Assembly: GCA_963665845.2 (NCBI GenBank)
Contig: OY762492.1
Span: 288,001 to 352,000 of the forward strand
Direction of reading: 5' to 3'
Length of the DNA: 64,000 bases
DNA from: Candidatus Poribacteria bacterium
Lineage (GTDB): Bacteria; Poribacteria; WGA-4E; GCA-2687025
Position numbers and translations under genes: made by a program. This document shows, piece by piece, positions 26,149 to 33,875 of this stretch. The notes under the pieces were generated by a model. It did no database searches and was not told where the DNA came from. It saw only the letters and a list, made by a program, of their open reading frames with translations. Within the stretch, counting starts at the first letter, position 1; every line of letters begins with the position of its first letter.

Positions 26149-26219
26149 AATGAGCCTTTCTGTGCTTGTGTCCGGTTGACCATACCATATCCGACCGCCG
26201 CAAACAAACGCGCCTTCCT

Positions 26220-26245
26220 CATGCGTCATTCGCGCTTGACGCATG
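26220..26245. promoter_or_regulatory. operator-like palindrome in a divergent promoter region
   Basis: CATGCGTCA-N8-TGACGCATG overlapping TTGACG (26236-26241). Confidence 0.35.
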
Positions 26246-26292
26246 CGCCTGTCTGCGCAATACTGAATAGGCAACGCAAATGGAGAAACGCG

Positions 26293-29184
26293 ATGGCGCG
26301 CCATGCGGAATCGAACCCGAACTTCAAACTTGCCGAAATGCTGCAGCGCATGGCGCCAAAAAGCCGCATGGAAGCGGAAAAAACAGGCGTCCTAGAAAAA
26401 AGCAAAGGGCTAAGACCCGACATACTGATCGCCGCCGACGGAAGATCGCCCGTCGTCATCGAGGCGGAATACCTTCCCGCTCCAAACGTCGAAAACGAAG
26501 CGCTGGACAGGCTCGGCGAACGCGTCGTCCATGAACAGCGGCACATCGAAGCGGTCGTTGCGCTGCGCTATCCTGAACAGCTGAAAAATGCCGAGAACAT
26601 TGAAGCGGCGCTGAAAAACGCGCGGCTTCAGTACTGCTTTTTTCAAGAAAGCGGCGCCGTAGACAAGCCGACCCGCTTTCCGGAAACAGGCTGGCTGGAA
26701 GGCGCTATCAGCGACCTGTCAGACATGGTACGCATGATCAGCGCGCCGCAAAAAGAGGTGGAGCAAGCGGCGGAGTTTCTTGAAACAGCGATTGAAAACG
26801 CGGCGCGCGTCTTAGACAACGCCGCCGAAACGCGACCCGAATTGTCTAAAGAAATCGCCCGCTTGCTCGGCATGTCGAATGTGCCGCAAACGCGCCGCAT
26901 GGCATGCGCCATCCTCGCCAACGCTCTCGCCTTCCATGAGCGAATCGCCGGCATGCATAGCGGCATTCGCCCGCTCTCCGCCGTCATCCGCGCGCCGCAT
27001 CCGCAGATCGACATGCTGGAAACCTGGGAGCAGATACTCGCCATCAACTATTATCCGATCTTCGCTGTCGCTCAAGATATTCTGACGCAGTTGACAGCGG
27101 ACATCGCCCAAGAGGTTCTGTCGAGGCTGCGTTACGCCGCCCAAGGCGCCCACATCACGAACGCCCATGAGCTGACAGGACGCGTCTTTCAACGGCTCAT
27201 CTCCGACCGAAAATATCTCGCCACCTTTTACACCCGCCCGTATTCAGCGGCGCTGCTGGCAAGGCTCGCCGTCAGCAAACTGCGCGGCGTCAACTGGAAA
27301 TTCCGCGAGTCGATTGAACGGCTCAAGATCGCCGACTTCGCATGCGGGACCGGCGCATTGCTCTCCGCCGTCTATGACCAGATCGCCGCGCTGCATGAGC
27401 GGGAGGGAGGAAACCTGGACGACCTGCACCCCGCCATGATGCAGGAGGTACTGCACGGCGCGGACGTCATGCCGTCCGCCGTCCATATTACCAGCGCGAC
27501 CCTCTCCGGCGCGAGACCCGACATCGACTACGGCGACTCGCGCGTCTATACGATGCCCTACGGCAGACAGACCGACAACACGGTCAAACTCGGCTCGCTG
27601 GAACTGCTGACGAACAGCAGCATCGATACGCTCTTCAACACGACCGACCCGGCAAAGCGCACCGGCAGGCATGGCGAAGAGACGGCGGCGCAGATCAACG
27701 TCGAGATCAAAGATGAATCGTTCGACCTTGTCATCATGAATCCGCCGTTCACCCGAACAACCGCGACTGGAGGCGAGTATGCCGGGACATACGCCGCCGC
27801 TTTTGCCGCTTTCGGCGCAACCGTTGACGATCAAAAGACGATGTCGGATCGAATGCAATCATTGAAAGGAGGCTCGTGTTACAACGGCAATGCGGGTATG
27901 GGGTCGGCGTTCGCTGCGTTGGGAGATAAAAAGTTAAGGCCCGGCGGCGTGTTGGCTTTAGTGCTGCCGTTAACCGCGATATCAGGACAATCTTGGTCAA
28001 AAATGCGGCAGATGCTGGCAAGCAATTTTACCGATATAGATGTTCTGAGCATCGCCGCTCCAAACACACGAGACGTCTCTTTCTCGGCGGATACGGGCAT
28101 GGCGGAATGCTTGATCGTGGCGCGCAAAAAAGCGGCGCGCCATGAATTGCATTCAAACGCCGCTCGCTTCACCTCTCTAAGACGACGGCCGCAGAATTTT
28201 GCGCATGCGGCTGAAGTCGCAAAGCGGATCGAATCCGCGGACACTGTTCGGCGTCTGGAGGACGGACCGTACGGCGGCGCGCCTGTGTCCGTTGGCGGCG
28301 ACCGAGAGGGTGAAGCGCTCGTTGGACCTATCAGCGCTGACGGCGACGCCTGGGAACTCTCGCGCATTGTGGATTATTCCGTTGCGCAAGCCGCTTATGC
28401 GCTAACGAATTCTACTCTATGGCTGCCAGGCCTCCATGATCCGATTGAAATTCCGATGGTTCCGCTTAATCAAATAGGTCGACGGGGATTTCACGATTTA
28501 GCCATAGTGGGGTATAAAGGATATTTTATTAAAGACCGCCCCAGCTCTACGGCAACATACCCATCGCTATGGAATCATGACGCTAAGAAAGAGACGCGGA
28601 TCGTTTGCGAACCTGATTCGCAGTTGCATGTTCAGCAAGGCAAGGAAGCAAAGGCGGCGGAAGTTTGGGCGACTGCCAGCCGGTGTCATCACAATAGAGA
28701 TTTCACATTGGGATCGCAGCCGCTAGCTGTCGCATTCACAGAAAAAAGAACAGCGGGCGGGCGCGCATGGCCAAACGTTGTTTTTGACGATACGCGGTTC
28801 GATTTTGCGTTTGCGTTATGGGGAAACAGCTCCCTCGGTATTCTCATGCACTGGTGGCATGCCAGCCGTCAACAGCCAGGAAGAAGCATCATAACGGTCA
28901 CTGGCATCGTATCGCTCCCGACGCTAGACCTGCGCGCCTTGTCGGACGAGCAGCTGTCTCTCGCCGAGGTCATCTTTGACCGCTTCCGCGGGGTGGAGTT
29001 CAAGCCGGCGTATATCGCCGATTTGGACGGGTCGCGCGCCGATCTGGACCGCGCCGTTCTGTGCGAGCTGCTGGGTTTGGAGGAGGCGGTTTATTTCGCC
29101 GTGCGCGAGTTATGCGCCAAGTGGGCAGCGGAGCCTTCCGTTCATGGCGGCAAGCCCCGCCCTGACGCGCCCTTCGCTGTCTAA
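26293..29184 (+). CDS. fused restriction endonuclease / N6-adenine methyltransferase (Type IIG/IIL-like), 963 aa
   Basis: N-terminal RPDIL..VIEAE nuclease-like motif; FYT, DFACGTG (motif I), NPPF (motif IV); C-terminal specificity-like region; RBS GGAGA before ATG 26293. Confidence 0.82.
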   Translation: MARHAESNPNFKLAEMLQRMAPKSRMEAEKTGVLEKSKGLRPDILIAADGRSPVVIEAEYLPAPNVENEALDRLGERVVHEQRHIEAVVALRYPEQLKNAENIEAALKNARLQYCFFQESGAVDKPTRFPETGWLEGAISDLSDMVRMISAPQKEVEQAAEFLETAIENAARVLDNAAETRPELSKEIARLLGMSNVPQTRRMACAILANALAFHERIAGMHSGIRPLSAVIRAPHPQIDMLETWEQILAINYYPIFAVAQDILTQLTADIAQEVLSRLRYAAQGAHITNAHELTGRVFQRLISDRKYLATFYTRPYSAALLARLAVSKLRGVNWKFRESIERLKIADFACGTGALLSAVYDQIAALHEREGGNLDDLHPAMMQEVLHGADVMPSAVHITSATLSGARPDIDYGDSRVYTMPYGRQTDNTVKLGSLELLTNSSIDTLFNTTDPAKRTGRHGEETAAQINVEIKDESFDLVIMNPPFTRTTATGGEYAGTYAAAFAAFGATVDDQKTMSDRMQSLKGGSCYNGNAGMGSAFAALGDKKLRPGGVLALVLPLTAISGQSWSKMRQMLASNFTDIDVLSIAAPNTRDVSFSADTGMAECLIVARKKAARHELHSNAARFTSLRRRPQNFAHAAEVAKRIESADTVRRLEDGPYGGAPVSVGGDREGEALVGPISADGDAWELSRIVDYSVAQAAYALTNSTLWLPGLHDPIEIPMVPLNQIGRRGFHDLAIVGYKGYFIKDRPSSTATYPSLWNHDAKKETRIVCEPDSQLHVQQGKEAKAAEVWATASRCHHNRDFTLGSQPLAVAFTEKRTAGGRAWPNVVFDDTRFDFAFALWGNSSLGILMHWWHASRQQPGRSIITVTGIVSLPTLDLRALSDEQLSLAEVIFDRFRGVEFKPAYIADLDGSRADLDRAVLCELLGLEEAVYFAVRELCAKWAAEPSVHGGKPRPDAPFAV

Positions 29185-29191
29185 TGAATTC

Positions 29192-29293
29192 GTCATTCCC
29201 GCCCTTGCGGTAACACGCGCGGGAATCTAGAGGCGCCTTAGAGGCTGCCCGCGTTCGCCCGCCGGCATGTCCCAACTAAAGACGTAAGGTCAG
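29192..29293. mobile_element. truncated MITE copy (one end plus internal palindrome)
   Basis: GTCATTCCC..GGGAATC followed by TGTCCCAACT..AGGTCAG end. Confidence 0.7.
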
Positions 29294-29299
29294 GGGAAC

Positions 29300-29467
29300 C
29301 TGACCTCATGCATAAAGTTGGGACATTTGAACCGACGATCGCTCTATTCATGGGAAAAAGACGCCGCCAACCAAACCGTCATTCCCGCGCAAGCGGGAAT
29401 CCAGAGTCTACCCAGAAACCGTCCGCGTTCACAACCAGAATTGTCCCAACTCTAAGGGTAAGGTCAG
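29300..29467 (+). mobile_element. 168-bp MITE, 26-bp imperfect TIRs, 9-bp target duplication
   Basis: CTGACCT-N9-AGTTGGGACA at both ends; CAGGGGAAC at 29291-29299 and 29468-29476; homolog at 37623-37790. Confidence 0.85.
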
Positions 29468-29479
29468 CAGGGGAACCTA

Positions 29480-29509
29480 TTGACATCAGCCGGCGCCGGC
29501 GCGTATCAT
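29480..29509 (+). promoter_or_regulatory. putative sigma70 promoter of the TPR-RelE unit
   Basis: TTGACA-18 bp-TATCAT. Confidence 0.55.
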
Positions 29510-29537
29510 ATACGTAATCAAAAGAAAGGGCGCGCGC

Positions 29538-30290
29538 ATGCATGAGCTTAGGAGGTTGGAAGACGGTCGGCTGTCGTTTCATTTCGGCGATTTTGCCGAG
29601 AGCATGAGAACGATTAGCGAGACGGCAGATTCGTTCGCCGTTCATTTGGATCGTTCCGCCGACGCAATGAGGCGGTTAGGCGCGGCGATGTCAAGCGCAA
29701 AAGAAACGCTTGACGCCGCTGGGGAAAACATTGACCAAACCAGTGTGTTCTGCCGCTTGTTTAAAAAGGCGCATGGACATTACAGCGAAGCGATCCGTTT
29801 GACAGCGGAGATAGACCTAGGGGAGGTTGCGCATTCCTTGTCGGCGAGTCTTTACCTTTGCCGCGGCCGTATCTCTTTGGTTTTGTACCAGTGGGGGGGC
29901 GATTCGACAGACACTCTCCATTCCGCAATTGCGGACCTCGTCAAGTCGGTTGAACTGGACCCCGCCGCTGAAACGCACATGCGCTTGGCGGAGGCGTATG
30001 TCGAATCGGACGACCTGGACGCCGCTATGGAGAGCCTTGAGAGCGCGACCCGCCTTGACATCAATTGCGCCGAGGCGTACCTCTTGAAAGGACTCATTCA
30101 CCGAGTAAGAGGCGAAGAGGAAGACGCGCACGAAGAAATCTTCGAGGCGATCTCTCTCGACCCCGACCTGTACCGAGAAGAGTTTGAGCCGATCATGCAG
30201 GCAGAACGGGAGTCGGAAGCTCTCTGGGACGAATTGCGGAGCCGACCCGAATTCGACGCCATGTTGGAGGAGCTGGAAAAAGAGCTCTAA
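29538..30290 (+). CDS. TPR protein with acidic antitoxin-like C-terminal helix
   Basis: TPR units (AIADLVKSVELDP, AEAYLLKG, AISLDP); tail ESEALWDELRSRPEFDAMLEELEKEL. Confidence 0.75.
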   Translation: MHELRRLEDGRLSFHFGDFAESMRTISETADSFAVHLDRSADAMRRLGAAMSSAKETLDAAGENIDQTSVFCRLFKKAHGHYSEAIRLTAEIDLGEVAHSLSASLYLCRGRISLVLYQWGGDSTDTLHSAIADLVKSVELDPAAETHMRLAEAYVESDDLDAAMESLESATRLDINCAEAYLLKGLIHRVRGEEEDAHEEIFEAISLDPDLYREEFEPIMQAERESEALWDELRSRPEFDAMLEELEKEL

Positions 30291-30323
30291 GCGCCGCGAA
30301 GACAACGAAACGAGAAACCGCTC

Positions 30324-30631
30324 ATGCGAACGGAACGAAGCGAGAGTTTCGAAAAGGCGTACCGCAAACTTGATCCTGCCATTCAAAAGAAAGTCGACCG
30401 TAAGTTAAAATTATTTGACGAACGCCTAAAACTGCTCGGCTCCGACCTGCGCGAAATGGTTCATATCCAAGGCTTCAATTTGCACAAAGATAAAAAGGTC
30501 GCTGGTGGATTCGCATTGACCTCCTCTATCGAGTTGCAGGAAAATTAAAAGGCGGTTGGAAAGACGGAACCATGATCTGGTATTTTATCGGAAAGCACGG
30601 CGGCACATACGAACGACACAAACAACGATAA
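30324..30631 (+). CDS. RelE/ParE-like toxin split by a -1 frameshift (102 aa if rejoined); may be a pseudogene or sequencing error
   Basis: Frame 0 reads MRTERSESFEKAYRKLDPAIQKKV..; the -1 frame from 30497 reads GRWWIRIDLLYRVAG..MIWYFIGKHGGTYE..*; junction GAT AAA AAG. Confidence 0.7.
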
Positions 30632-30722
30632 AGCAAGGATCGCCCAGCGGACAGCAGACGGCGCCCTCGTTGAGCCGTCCATTCATGGCGGAAAGCCCCG
30701 CCCCGCCTCCCCCTTCGCCGTC

Positions 30723-30828
30723 TAAACCCCCAGCCCCCTTGACAAGGGGGAGTCTACGAAGCCGCGCGCTCCGCAAGCGTCATTCCCGCCCTTGCCCCTT
30801 GCGGTAAAACGTAACGCGCCGGAATGAC
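30723..30828. repeat. CCCCTT/AAGGGG hairpin plus GTCATTCC..GGAATGAC palindrome variant
   Basis: Same repeat families as at 19.8, 29.2, 37.4-37.7, 48.8, 55.9 and 63.4 kb. Confidence 0.75.
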
Positions 30829-30916
30829 GAGAAGCCCGATTTGAGTAGGTTGCGCCGTCTCAACCGCTTTGCTAAGATGGGTTGTCTTTTGAACTGGCGA
30901 GAAGAGGAGACATACG

Positions 30917-32224
30917 TTGGATGCGGCGCAGCAGACCTTGTCAGATTCGGTACAGGTGTCGGGCGTTGGGTTGATGCTCGGCATGGAAGCGCGCTTGACG
31001 CTCAAGCCGGCTCCGCCTGACGCGGGCATTGTGTTTGTGCGGACGGACCTGGAAGGGCGTCCCGAAATCCCGGTCAACAGCGAGAGCGAGATCGCCGGGG
31101 CGGGGCGCAGCGCGGCGCTTGAACGAAACGGCGCGCGTGTTCAGACGGTTGAGCATCTGCTCTCGGCGCTCACAGGGATGGGCATCGACAACTGCATCGT
31201 TGAGATAAACGCGCCGGAGCCGCCCATCGGCGACGGAAGCGCGCTTCCGTTTGTCGAGGCGATACGGGAGGCGGGCGTACAGACGCAAGACGCCCCGCGG
31301 CGTTTTATTGAGATCGACGCGCCGATGGCGGCGGTGGACGGCGACCGCTCCGCGACGCTCTACCCAGAGGACGGGTTTCGCGCCGGCTTCGTGTTTGACA
31401 AGTACGACCGCCGCGGCGTTGCGAGCCAAGCGGCAACCTTCAACATCTCCCCAGAGACCTACGCGCGCGAAATCGCTCCAGCGCGCACCTTCTGTTTTGC
31501 GGATGAGATTGAGGCGCTCAAGGCGGCGGGCCTCGGCAAAGGCGCCAACGATGAGAACGTCATGGTCATCGACGACCGCGGCTTGCGCAATGGGCTGTTC
31601 CGTTTTGAGAACGAGCTGGCGCGCCACAAGCTGCTGGATCTGATTGGCGATCTGCGTTTGGCGGGGCGGATGCCGCGGGGTTATGCGCTGGCGGCGCGTT
31701 CGCAGCATGCGCTGAATCACCGCCTGGCGCAGCAGCTGCGCGAGCGAATCGACGCGGAGCGTTTTCGGTTGAATCCGCCGATGGGACCCGCGGAGATTGA
31801 AGCGGCGATACCGCACCGGTTCCCGTTTCTGCTGGTCGACCGCATCGTTTCCATCGAAGAGGGCAAGCGCATTACAGGGATCAAGTGCGTGTCGTATAAT
31901 GAGCCGTTTTTCCAGGGGCATTTTCCGGGGCATCCGGTCATGCCGGGCGTGTTGATTGCGGAGGCGCTTGCGCAAACGGCGGGCGTTCTGGTGAGTCGGC
32001 ATGCCGATTTTGAGGGCAAGATTGCGTATCTTATGACGATGAACAATGTAAAGTTTCGGGCGCCGGCGGTTCCCGGCGATCAGATCGAATTGAGAGTCGA
32101 AATAACCCGCCTGCGCCGTTCGGTCGGTTTTTTACGCGGAACCGCTTACATCGACGCCAAACTGACCGCGGAGGCAGATTTCAGTTTCGCGCTGGTCAAC
32201 CGCGAAAAGGAGGCGCCCAAATGA
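30917..32224 (+). CDS. lpxC-fabZ: bifunctional LpxC deacetylase / FabZ dehydratase
   Basis: TVEHLLSAL, DGSA, IAPARTF, HKLLDLIGDL; PHRFPFLLVD, FFQGHFP..PVMPGVL. Confidence 0.93.
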   Translation: MDAAQQTLSDSVQVSGVGLMLGMEARLTLKPAPPDAGIVFVRTDLEGRPEIPVNSESEIAGAGRSAALERNGARVQTVEHLLSALTGMGIDNCIVEINAPEPPIGDGSALPFVEAIREAGVQTQDAPRRFIEIDAPMAAVDGDRSATLYPEDGFRAGFVFDKYDRRGVASQAATFNISPETYAREIAPARTFCFADEIEALKAAGLGKGANDENVMVIDDRGLRNGLFRFENELARHKLLDLIGDLRLAGRMPRGYALAARSQHALNHRLAQQLRERIDAERFRLNPPMGPAEIEAAIPHRFPFLLVDRIVSIEEGKRITGIKCVSYNEPFFQGHFPGHPVMPGVLIAEALAQTAGVLVSRHADFEGKIAYLMTMNNVKFRAPAVPGDQIELRVEITRLRRSVGFLRGTAYIDAKLTAEADFSFALVNREKEAPK

Positions 32225-33030
32225 GCTCCAAAATACATCCCACCGCCATCGTCAGCCCCGACGCAGAACTGGCAGACGGCGTCGAGATCGGAGCTTACAG
32301 CGTTGTGGACGCCGGCGCGTCCATCGGCGAAAACACATGGATTGATACGCATGCGCGCATACACGGCGCGGCGACGATCGGCTCCGAATGCCGCATCCAT
32401 CAAGGCGCCGCCATCGGACACTCCTCCGTCGACCTCAAATTTAAAGGCGGGGACTGCAGAGCCGTCATCGGCAACCGCAACATTATCCGCGAATATGTAA
32501 CGATTTCCGCCTCCTCCTTCGACGGAAAAGCGACCATGATCGGCAACGGCAACCTGCTCATGCACTGGACAAACATCGCCCATGACTGCGTCATCGGGGA
32601 CGGCGTCATCATGGCGAACCTTGTCTCGCTGGGCGGGCATGTGGAGATTGAGGGACCATGCCGCATCGGCGCGCATGCCGGCTTTCATCAGTTTGTGCGG
32701 GTCGGGCGCGGCTCCATGATCGGCGGATACTCGAAGGTGACGCAGGACGCGCCGCCGTATAGCCTCACGGAAGGCAACCCCGCCTGGGCGCGCAGCCTGA
32801 ACCTGATCGGGCGGGATGTCGTGAAAAGCCACCCGATGGCGGATGTGCCGGAGGAGTCGATCTCGGCGCTAAAACAGGCGTTTCGGTTGATTTTTCGTTC
32901 CGATTTGAAGCTGGCGGACGCGCTTGATCAAGCGGAAGAGGCGGCGGGAAGCGATCCGCATGCGGCGCATCTGATACAGTTTGTGCGCTCATCGAAGCGG
33001 GGCGTGCGCCGGCGCGCTCCCGCTGAATGA
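32221..33030 (+). CDS. lpxA: UDP-N-acetylglucosamine O-acyltransferase
   Basis: IHPTAIV, hexapeptide repeats, DLKF.G, IREYVTI, AHDC, HQFVRVG. Confidence 0.92.
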   Translation: MSSKIHPTAIVSPDAELADGVEIGAYSVVDAGASIGENTWIDTHARIHGAATIGSECRIHQGAAIGHSSVDLKFKGGDCRAVIGNRNIIREYVTISASSFDGKATMIGNGNLLMHWTNIAHDCVIGDGVIMANLVSLGGHVEIEGPCRIGAHAGFHQFVRVGRGSMIGGYSKVTQDAPPYSLTEGNPAWARSLNLIGRDVVKSHPMADVPEESISALKQAFRLIFRSDLKLADALDQAEEAAGSDPHAAHLIQFVRSSKRGVRRRAPAE

Positions 33031-33875
33031 ATCGCGCCGAACCGCTGGGGCTTATCGCCGGCAGCGGTCAGCTTCCCGTTCTTCTGGCGCGGGAGACGGC
33101 AGGTTCCCGCTCCCTCATCACCGCCGCTATTTCCAACGAGCCGCAGCCCGAACTGGAGCGGCGGTCAACCTTTTTTGAACGAACGGCGGTCGGCAAGGCA
33201 AGCCGCATCGTGTCGATCTTTGAGTCGCATGGGGCGGCGGAGCTGGCGATCCTCGGCGGGGCGCAGAAATCGGAGCTGTTTAAACCGCATCGGCTCGACT
33301 GGCTCGCGTTGAAGATACTGGCGAAATCGAAGACGCGCGGCGATCAGTCGCTCTTTGCCGCCATCGCCGAGGAGTTTGAGTCGCGGGGGATGCGGGTCGC
33401 CGATCAGCGAACCTATCTGCCGTCGCTGACGGTAACAGAGGGCGTTTTGACGGAGAGAAAGCTGTCCCGCGCCCAGCGCGCCGACGCCGAATACGCCCTG
33501 CATTTGGCGCGTTCCGCCGCGGCGCTGGACATCGGTCAAACGGCGGTTGTCAAGAGCGGCGCGCCGGTCGCCATCGAAGGCATGGAAGGGACCGACGCCG
33601 CCATCCGCCGAGGCGGGCAGCTTGCCGGCAAAGACGCCGTCGTCGGCAAAGCATGCCGACCCGACCATGACTTTCGCTTCGACACGCCGACCATCGGGCT
33701 GAAGACGCTGGACGCGCTCATCGACGCGAAAGCGGGCGCGCTGGCGCTGGAAGCGGGGCGCGTGTTCATGCTGGACCGCGAGGCTTTGATTCAAGAAGCG
33801 GACCGCATCGGCATCGCTGTCATCGCCCTTCCGCCGAGTCGCTCTCCGCGCCGTTCATCACAACTGGATGTTTAG
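33027..33875 (+). CDS. lpxI: UDP-2,3-diacylglucosamine diphosphatase LpxI (DUF1009)
   Basis: GLIAGSGQLP, LDIGQT, AIEGMEGTD..I.R, DFRFDTPTIG; follows lpxA. Confidence 0.88.
   Translation: MNRAEPLGLIAGSGQLPVLLARETAGSRSLITAAISNEPQPELERRSTFFERTAVGKASRIVSIFESHGAAELAILGGAQKSELFKPHRLDWLALKILAKSKTRGDQSLFAAIAEEFESRGMRVADQRTYLPSLTVTEGVLTERKLSRAQRADAEYALHLARSAAALDIGQTAVVKSGAPVAIEGMEGTDAAIRRGGQLAGKDAVVGKACRPDHDFRFDTPTIGLKTLDALIDAKAGALALEAGRVFMLDREALIQEADRIGIAVIALPPSRSPRRSSQLDV

What the first reader, a model, noticed from the sequence alone, without database searches (positions are those of the whole stretch)
29480..30631. Candidate new defence module: TPR protein with antitoxin-like tail plus hidden RelE-like toxin, next to a Type IIG R-M gene
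Seen: a putative promoter, then a 250-aa helical/TPR protein ending in an acidic helix (ESEALWDELRSRPEFDAMLEELEKEL). 33 bp later comes a basic ORF that, joined across one frameshift, gives 102 aa with RelE-like features (SFEKAYRKL..IQKKV; WWIRIDLLYRV; WYFIGKH..YE). The unit is flanked by MITE and palindromic repeats and lies directly downstream of an R-M gene. Known: RelE toxins are normally neutralised by small acidic antitoxins encoded upstream, and TPR domains serve as phage-protein sensors in several immune systems. Inference: a TPR-antitoxin fusion releases a ribosome-dependent mRNase on sensing a phage protein, backing up restriction. This is the best candidate for an undescribed system in the window.
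Basis: partly seen in the sequence, partly recalled or inferred. Interest (0 to 1): 0.75.

Follow-up and report, generated by a model that had tools for sequence, protein, structure and literature searches.

The report
TPR-capped antitoxin with broken RelE toxin
This is one copy, with a frameshifted toxin gene, of a repeated two-gene unit in which a likely antitoxin is fused behind a protein-binding TPR domain, a design that recurs with unrelated antitoxin families in Poribacteria and may let these bacteria switch toxins on when the TPR binds a trigger protein.

Summary
The 250-aa TPR gene and the frameshifted RelE-fold gene are present. Intact 102-aa orthologues exist elsewhere (88-89/102 identical), and another orthologue is broken at a different site, so the break is a mutation, not programmed frameshifting. 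The genome has 12 TPR-plus-tail genes: 7 precede intact RelE/ParE-like toxins, 1 this broken one, 4 none. A same-genus genome has 11. The tail family is homologous to standalone ~72-aa proteins upstream of the same toxins in other Poribacteria (HHalign 96.8%). The window's tail is 17 residues short and is linked to them only through its paralogues. The TPR-tail fusion was found in 2 of 176 phylum genomes. TPR fused to the unrelated UPF0175 antitoxin occurs in 83 of 176. The R-M link is weak: only 1 of 7 R-M paralogues has such a unit. Tail-toxin binding, toxicity and phage sensing are untested. Eight literature searches and four look-ups of earlier scan notes showed no TPR-fused antitoxin. Verdict: new variant of type II toxin-antitoxin systems.

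The parts
26302..29184 (+). Type IIG-like restriction-modification gene (960 aa), one of 7 paralogues in the genome; part of the same ~4.6-kb insertion
   Evidence: Pfam Eco57I; motifs; paralogues; island 26217-30847 absent at the syntenic site of G001
29131..29184 (+). Last 54 nt of the R-M gene; left copy of the direct repeat that brackets the TPR-toxin cassette
29219..29298 (.). Genome-wide ~80-nt repeat (239 near-full copies) at whose end the MITE sits
29300..29467 (.). MITE with CTGACCT/AGGTCAG terminal inverted repeats, 9-nt target-site duplication and internal palindrome; 137 near-full copies
29480..29509 (+). Sigma-70-like promoter (predicted); similar sites upstream of 6 of 14 other TPR cassettes
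29538..30290 (+). TPR-fused putative antitoxin (250 aa): variable helical N-terminus, TPR repeats, acidic C-terminal tail (residues ~211-250, net charge -9) about 17 residues shorter than in most paralogues
30324..30497 (+). 5' part of the RelE/ParE-like toxin gene (58 codons); this frame runs on to a stop at 30548
30500..30631 (+). 3' part of the toxin gene (43 codons, with the conserved YR and W...GxH motifs), out of frame with the 5' part by one base
30672..30769 (+). Stump of an R-M gene 3' end plus trailing sequence (84% to the paralogue at C1:3160239-3160338; 85% over 54 nt to the adjacent gene); likely recombination scar

Best explanation
The unit is a likely type II toxin-antitoxin operon in which a putative antitoxin is fused to the end of a TPR protein and precedes a RelE-fold toxin gene that in this copy is broken by a one-base frameshift and is probably inactive. 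In intact copies the acidic tail is inferred to bind and neutralise the basic toxin, which is most likely a ribosome-dependent mRNase. The TPR part stands where other Poribacteria have small N-terminal domains and is inferred to be the control module: binding a trigger protein (phage-encoded is my leading guess) would unmask or destabilise the tail and free the toxin. Shown: gene order, recurrence, fold, family homology of the tail, the lesion. Inferred: binding, mRNase activity, TPR triggering. My odds are 0.9 for the toxin-antitoxin architecture, 0.8 that this copy is inactive, 0.7 for mRNase rather than gyrase poison, and 0.45 that the TPR is a trigger sensor.
For: 12 TPR-tail genes in G000, 8 directly followed by the toxin gene (7 intact), and no standalone antitoxin of this family among 76,112 six-frame ORFs. 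11 in G001, 5 with intact toxins, including a tandem triple array. In other genera the upstream ORF of the toxin hit the tail profile in 9 of 28 loci and the TPR profile in none. A profile of 8 such standalone proteins finds 7 fused tails in G000 at E 2e-7 to 0.009; profile-profile probability 96.8%, E 2.9e-10 over 57 columns. Toxins: PF24732 over cut-off in 3 of 6 paralogues by hmmscan and 5 places by genome search. Best folds are RelE/HigB/YafQ/YoeB at Z 9.2-10.4, above ParE at 7.3-8.5; W75 and H81 are invariant in 38 of 38. Charges: tail -9, intact toxin +15. Lesion: intact orthologues P0015/17/18, a differently broken P0016, and 3 broken copies in G001; frame changes in only 4 of 223 G000 orthologue-like ORFs. 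Trigger role: TPR is fused to the unrelated UPF0175 antitoxin in 83 of 176 genomes with ORFs of about 180-1350 aa, and to two PIN-associated tails in G000. The tail is 100% identical but the N-terminus only 60-70% identical between close orthologues. 5 of 8 pairs lie within 5 kb of a methyltransferase versus 19.6% of random sites (p=0.01).
Against: The window's own tail scores only 4.7 bits against the standalone profile (16 of 500 shuffles score as high), and direct BLASTP finds nothing, so its link is transitive. It lacks the conserved EA...GKT.P end. Short tails go with an intact toxin in 1 of 7 cases versus 11 of 16 for long tails (Fisher p=0.027; genes not independent). N-terminal dN/dS is 0.75-0.81, which does not show positive selection. 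7 of 23 TPR-tail genes have no toxin gene. No PADLOC model matches the TPR protein, and the toxin family matches only weakly. Methyltransferase proximity is not significant at 3 kb (p=0.08), and accessory genes cluster for other reasons. No reads could be examined.
Confidence: 0.6

Rival explanations
1. Addiction tag without sensing. The antitoxin tail was captured onto abundant TPR genes, and the TPR is only a stabilising scaffold or a passenger with its own job. The downstream toxin keeps the fused gene and its neighbours from being lost until the toxin decays.
For: Antitoxin-like tails also sit on non-TPR carriers in G000: 181-aa helical proteins before PIN genes and a 465-aa DUF4209 protein before MazF (tail identities recalled). 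The PF24732 partner tail has many different N-terminal domains across Poribacteria. Many copies are orphan or broken. Cassettes move between sites and some carry flanking duplications. The genome has 54 TPR-profile ORFs.
Against: Repeated fusion of TPRs to several unrelated antitoxin types, and retention of TPR-UPF0175 in 83 genomes of 3 or more families with the PIN partner adjacent in 7 of 8 loci checked, suggest a selected coupling.
Confidence: 0.25
2. The TPR couples the antitoxin to a host chaperone or protease, so the toxin is released by proteotoxic or host stress rather than by a phage protein. This would be analogous to toxin-antitoxin-chaperone systems.
For: TPR structural neighbours include chaperone-binding TPRs such as Tom71-Hsp70/Hsp82 and sNASP (generic TPR matches). 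The last TPR repeats are better conserved (89-90%) than the N-terminus.
Against: The fold matches are generic. A single conserved host partner would not need a repeat number that varies several-fold.
Confidence: 0.1
3. The window's toxin is active, either through programmed -1 frameshifting at the A-run (30492-30497) or because the break is an assembly error.
For: The break lies next to an A5G run. The TPR gene, promoter and both toxin halves are otherwise intact, with 88-89/102 identity to intact orthologues. Reads could not be checked.
Against: Orthologues are either fully in frame or broken elsewhere, so the shift is not conserved. Frame changes are rare in this assembly, 4 of 223 ORFs. P0019 reads through the same site in frame.
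Confidence: 0.12

Closest known systems
Type II RelE/ParE-superfamily (BECR-fold) toxin-antitoxin modules; Pfam PF24732 ParE_like toxins with small standalone partners
   Same: Antitoxin-toxin gene order with abutting or overlapping stop/start; acidic tail and basic ~95-aa toxin; RelE/YafQ/YoeB fold; tail family homologous to the standalone partner.
   Different: The antitoxin is 170-300 aa with N-terminal TPRs and no Pfam-detectable DNA-binding domain. The survey of this superfamily (PMC11980606; abstract, outline and term search seen) has 0 occurrences of TPR or tetratricopeptide in its main text.
Sensor-controlled anti-phage TA systems: CapRelSJ46 and toxin-antitoxin-chaperone HigBAC/CmdTAC
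   Same: An extra protein-recognition module is coupled to antitoxin function. CapRel's antitoxin domain is also the phage sensor (passage in 10.1101/2023.12.08.570793). The HigC chaperone senses lambda gpV (abstract of 10.1101/2024.02.24.581848).
   Different: Here the candidate sensor is a TPR array fused to the antitoxin, with a separate toxin and no SecB-like gene seen. Sensing is not shown.
UPF0175 (COG2886)-DUF3368/PIN pair
   Same: Predicted TA pair (passages of PMC5499597 and PMC2701414); in Poribacteria it carries the same kind of TPR cap.
   Different: An unrelated antitoxin and toxin family; neither paper mentions TPR in its main text (0 hits).
TPR-sensor immune proteins such as Avs/NLR-like STAND ATPases (recalled, not tested)
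   Same: TPR repeats used to recognise phage proteins.
   Different: No NTPase domain or oligomer-activated effector here; control would be by antitoxin release.

Membership tests
Type II TA, RelE/ParE superfamily | Toxin has the BECR/RelE fold | tested here: met
   Intact paralogue P0004: pLDDT 93.7; Z 10.4 to RelE 2khe, 9.8 to YafQ, 9.6 to YoeB. Both window halves match the paralogue profile (E 1e-6, 1.7e-7).
Type II TA, RelE/ParE superfamily | Two adjacent co-oriented genes, conserved as a pair | tested here: met
   8 of 8 toxin loci in G000 directly follow a TPR-tail gene; 8 loci in G001.
Type II TA, RelE/ParE superfamily | Upstream gene carries a segment homologous to the family's partner protein | tested here: met
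   Family level: HHalign 96.8%, E 2.9e-10; 7 fused tails found by the standalone profile. The standalone proteins are themselves putative antitoxins by position and have no Pfam match.
Type II TA, RelE/ParE superfamily | The window's own tail retains the full partner segment | tested here: not met
   20 residues after the conserved Trp versus 37 in most paralogues; 4.7 bits, 16/500 shuffles. The same stop is in P0011, P0012 and a G001 copy.
Type II TA, RelE/ParE superfamily | Intact toxin reading frame in this copy | tested here: not met
   One-base frameshift after codon 58.
Type II TA, RelE/ParE superfamily | Antitoxin binds and neutralises the toxin | not testable with these tools
Type II TA, RelE/ParE superfamily | Antitoxin has a DNA-binding autoregulatory domain (typical, not universal) | tested here: inconclusive
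   Only TPR families were found by Pfam; residues 1-70 are unassigned and modelled with lower confidence.
RelE-type ribosome-dependent mRNase (versus ParE gyrase inhibitor) | Closer to RNase members and keeps candidate catalytic residues | tested here: inconclusive
   RNase folds rank about 2 Z above ParE; Tyr-Arg and GxH are conserved (likeness to the YafQ/HigB catalytic His is recalled). PMC11980606 notes that fold alone does not decide this.
Anti-phage sensor-TA (CapRel/TAC-like) | Phage protein triggers the toxin; protection in phage challenge | not testable with these tools
   No assay possible; PADLOC gave no match for the TPR protein and only weak PD-Lambda-2_A matches for 3 of 38 toxins.
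Type IIG R-M accessory module | Conserved linkage to the R-M gene | tested here: not met
   1 of 7 R-M paralogues has a TPR-tail gene within 10 kb; the closest G001 homologues of the TPR gene lie beside other genes.
Programmed -1 frameshift gene | Shift site conserved across orthologues | tested here: not met
   3 full-length orthologues in frame; P0016 and the G001 C3 copy are broken at other positions.

The most novel reading that the evidence does not exclude
Poribacteria have repeatedly turned ordinary antitoxins into receptors by capping them with variable TPR arrays. RelE-, PIN- and DUF3368-type toxins all sit behind TPR-antitoxin fusions, forming a modular, diversifying pattern-recognition immune repertoire in which TPR binding of a phage protein releases the toxin. 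The window holds a retired member.
Probability: 0.3. Interest if true: 0.85.

Novelty: new variant of a known kind. Interest (0 to 1): 0.6.

Why it matters
How type II antitoxins are inactivated by a specific signal is known for only a few systems. A lineage that fuses TPR arrays to several unrelated antitoxins offers small, swappable two-gene units in which that question can be tested directly. It would also give a concrete non-host-interaction role to some of the many TPR genes in this phylum. If TPR triggering is real, the sensor-antitoxin design could be re-programmable. If not, the family is still a clear case of antitoxin tails being grafted onto larger genes, with frequent toxin decay. 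The window copy itself is a poor experimental candidate; intact paralogues are better.

Tried and rejected
Pfam on the two toxin halves: no match; NCBIfam on 38 intact toxins: none. Fresh nonsense mutation as the cause of the short tail: considered because the 11 codons after the stop resemble the missing tail, then rejected as recent because the same stop is in P0011, P0012 and a G001 copy. In-frame TPR-antitoxin-toxin fusion: none seen in the G000/G001 copies; a search for longer relatives of the toxin's first 58 residues found none (weak evidence). Wider distribution of the TPR-tail family: genome contigs gave only 6 loci, all from G001; the metagenome and viral scans gave none (pattern-based, close relatives only); the intact toxin had no match in 50,697 phage records. 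The 1.8-billion-protein HMM search was swamped by long TPR proteins: 149 of the 150 listed hits lacked the tail, so it says nothing about distant fusions. The ESM Atlas gave generic TPR clusters and nothing usable for the tail. Flanking direct repeats are not general: unique-sequence duplications were found at the window and C1:1239k, with a tandem duplication at C1:1692k, among 15 cassettes, plus one seen in G001. The first frameshift baseline was dominated by shadow ORFs and was redone with a composition filter, which still leaves some. Complex prediction and read mapping were not available, so binding and the base call remain open. Four look-ups of earlier scan notes gave nothing relevant.

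Full report
OBSERVATION. The window is G000:C1:288001-352000. The same-genus genome G001 is titled Candidatus Poribacteria by the tools. The MITE is real (CTGACCT/AGGTCAG ends, 9-nt target duplication, 137 near-full copies), but it and the palindromes are genome-wide repeats. The interval 26217-30847 (R-M gene plus this unit) is missing at the syntenic site in G001, where about 11 nt separate the flanking genes. A stump of an R-M gene end at 30672-30769 closes the unit and looks like a recombination scar (inference).

THE TOXIN. Neither half hits Pfam, but tblastn of the own genome found intact paralogues. Three of 6 scanned pass the PF24732 ParE_like cut-off, and 5 places do in a genome search. 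A model of one paralogue (pLDDT 93.7) matches RelE, HigB, YafQ and YoeB at Z 9.2-10.4 (rmsd 2.2-2.9, 78-90 aligned) and ParE-type toxins at Z 7.3-8.5 (Foldseek agrees). W75 and H81 are invariant and Y58, R59 and G79 nearly so in 38 sequences. I read this as a likely mRNase (0.7); the likeness of the GxH histidine to YafQ/HigB catalytic residues is recalled, and PMC11980606 warns that fold does not decide the target.

THE BREAK. Three full-length 102-aa orthologues (P0015, P0017, P0018) match the window gene at 88-89 of 102 positions, and fragment P0019 reads through the same site in frame. P0016 is shifted at residue ~41 instead, and three G001 copies are broken at other places. So the shift is not conserved, and toxin loss is recurrent. 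Frame changes were seen in 4 of 223 orthologue-like ORFs (88,819 aa, from 400 kb on 3 of about 40 G001 contigs), so a chance assembly error in a 300-nt gene is unlikely but not excluded; reads could not be examined. P0018 and the TPR orthologue P0011 have the same longest-contig length (14,993), as do P0016 and P0012 (4,921), which suggests shared contigs (inference). The short-tailed protein therefore probably coexists with an intact toxin in some strains.

THE TAIL. In 28 toxin loci from other Poribacteria genera, 26 had an adjacent upstream ORF; none hit the TPR profile and 9 hit the tail profile. A profile of 8 such ~72-aa proteins, built independently of the TPR proteins, finds 7 TPR-fused tails (E 2e-7 to 0.009) and no standalone copy among 76,112 G000 ORFs. 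Profile-profile comparison gives 96.8%, E 2.9e-10. Against this: the window's own tail was not among those hits, scores 4.7 bits (16 of 500 shuffles as high) and has no BLASTP match. It stops 20 residues after the conserved Trp instead of about 37. The stop is shared with P0011, P0012 and a G001 orphan, so it is old. Across 23 genes in two genomes, tails of 30 or fewer residues have an intact toxin in 1 of 7 cases and longer tails in 11 of 16 (p=0.027, not independent). The standalone proteins have no Pfam family (2 tested); their antitoxin role rests on position and charge.

THE FAMILY. G000 has 12 TPR-tail genes: 7 with an intact toxin, the window, and 4 orphans; every toxin of this family follows one. 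G001 has 11: 5 intact (three in tandem), 3 broken, 3 without toxin. Among 176 phylum genomes, full TPR-plus-tail matches (95-161 bits) occurred only in these two; the next best was 46.7 bits on the TPR part alone (28 candidates scored per genome). A protein search found 9 relatives, one of them more distant (P0010). Intact G000/G001 pairs show purifying selection on the toxin (dN/dS 0.11-0.35 in 3 pairs; rough Nei-Gojobori).

A WIDER PATTERN. Of 54 TPR-profile ORFs in G000, others end in different tails before other toxin genes. All 4 UPF0175 matches are TPR-fused, 3 of them directly before DUF3368-type PIN genes. Two further TPR proteins precede PF01850 PIN genes; calling their tails VapB-like is recalled. 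TPR-UPF0175 fusions were found in 83 of 176 genomes, in open frames of about 180-1350 aa, with a DUF3368-like gene adjacent in 7 of 8 loci inspected. G000 and G001 had no HicA (PF07927) or classical ParE (PF05016) match. The single MazF follows a 465-aa DUF4209 protein whose last residues resemble a MazE C-terminus (recalled). Antitoxin tails on large carriers thus appear to be the norm in this genome, and TPR is the commonest carrier.

DEFENCE LINK. The genome has 69 N6_N4 and 20 Eco57I matches, so adjacency to R-M is common. With 74 methyltransferase positions on C1, 5 of 8 pairs lie within 5 kb (19.6% expected, p=0.01; 4 of 7 without the window, p=0.03), but 3 of 8 within 3 kb is not significant (three cut-offs tried). 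Only 1 of 7 R-M paralogues has the unit nearby. PADLOC has no model for the TPR protein. PMC5649159 (passages) reports R-M and TA enrichment in sponge symbionts; the habitat of G000 was not determined here.

MECHANISM. Shown: architecture, recurrence, fold, family homology, lesion. Inferred: the tail wraps the toxin as in other RelE-family complexes; the TPR gates the tail. I favour ligand-triggered release because the fusion arose with unrelated antitoxins and because the N-terminus varies (60-70% identity, dN/dS 0.75-0.81) while the tail is fixed between close orthologues. Those values are equally compatible with relaxed constraint, and orphans are common, so addiction-tag and chaperone-coupling models remain live.

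PRIOR ART. Eight full-text searches (listings and abstract starts seen) showed no title or abstract describing TPR-fused antitoxins. Term searches inside PMC11980606, PMC5499597 and PMC2701414 gave 0 TPR hits, and in 10.1101/2023.12.08.570793 TPR appears once, as a gene label in a supplementary figure legend. I saw passages, abstracts or outlines only. Supplementary tables were not read and could list such architectures, and subscription journals are mostly not covered.

VERDICT. A real, apparently undescribed variant of type II TA modules; this copy is most likely a toxin pseudogene; the sensing claim is plausible but untested. Interest 0.6.

Noticed in passing
G000:C1:1300781-1310760 (L154, L151, L147); G001 C35 (L148, L152): Array of TPR-UPF0175 plus DUF3368/PIN pairs interrupted by an Eco57I-type gene; the fusion is present in 83 of 176 Poribacteria genomes with very variable TPR number. 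A stronger candidate for experiments than the window copy.
   Followed up: partly
G000:C1:2243853-2245597 (L179:83-1827): MazF/PemK gene overlapped by a 465-aa DUF4209 gene whose last ~15 residues resemble a MazE C-terminus (recalled motif).
   Followed up: partly
G000:C1:1690481-1693337 (L009): TPR protein with a short tail before a PIN gene, then an orphan TPR-tail gene and a second copy of the first TPR gene without PIN.
   Followed up: partly
G000:C1:3493623-3496101 (L140); C1:1674378, 1679458, 3609022: A 674-aa TPR protein and several ~181-aa helical proteins share the same C-terminal ...GGR[KT]FT...NER tail, and most precede PIN genes.
   Followed up: partly
G001:C26:173476-176175 (L058-L060): Three tandem TPR-antitoxin/RelE-like pairs with near-identical TPRs but different tails and toxins.
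   Followed up: partly
window 26302-29184 and G000:C1 2253121, 1702402, 2002280, 3160288, 3225334, 3712259: Seven paralogues of the Type IIG-like gene at 59-74% identity to the window copy, one of them split; the genome also has 69 N6_N4 methyltransferase matches, an unusually large set.
   Followed up: no
window 29300-29467: 168-nt MITE family (137 near-full copies) with target duplications; its transposase was not sought.
   Followed up: partly
L049:1440-2130 (G001 C9) and G000:C1:1238649-1239881: Orphan TPR-tail cassettes bracketed by 69-85-nt duplications of neighbouring sequence, like the 54-nt duplication in the window.
   Followed up: partly
L014-L039: The same W...D...G toxin-partner tail occurs behind several different N-terminal domains across Poribacteria, so it behaves as a portable module.
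   Followed up: no
window 30917-33875: Apparent lpxC-fabZ fusion, lpxA and lpxI operon (names recalled from sequence features), syntenic with G001.
   Followed up: no
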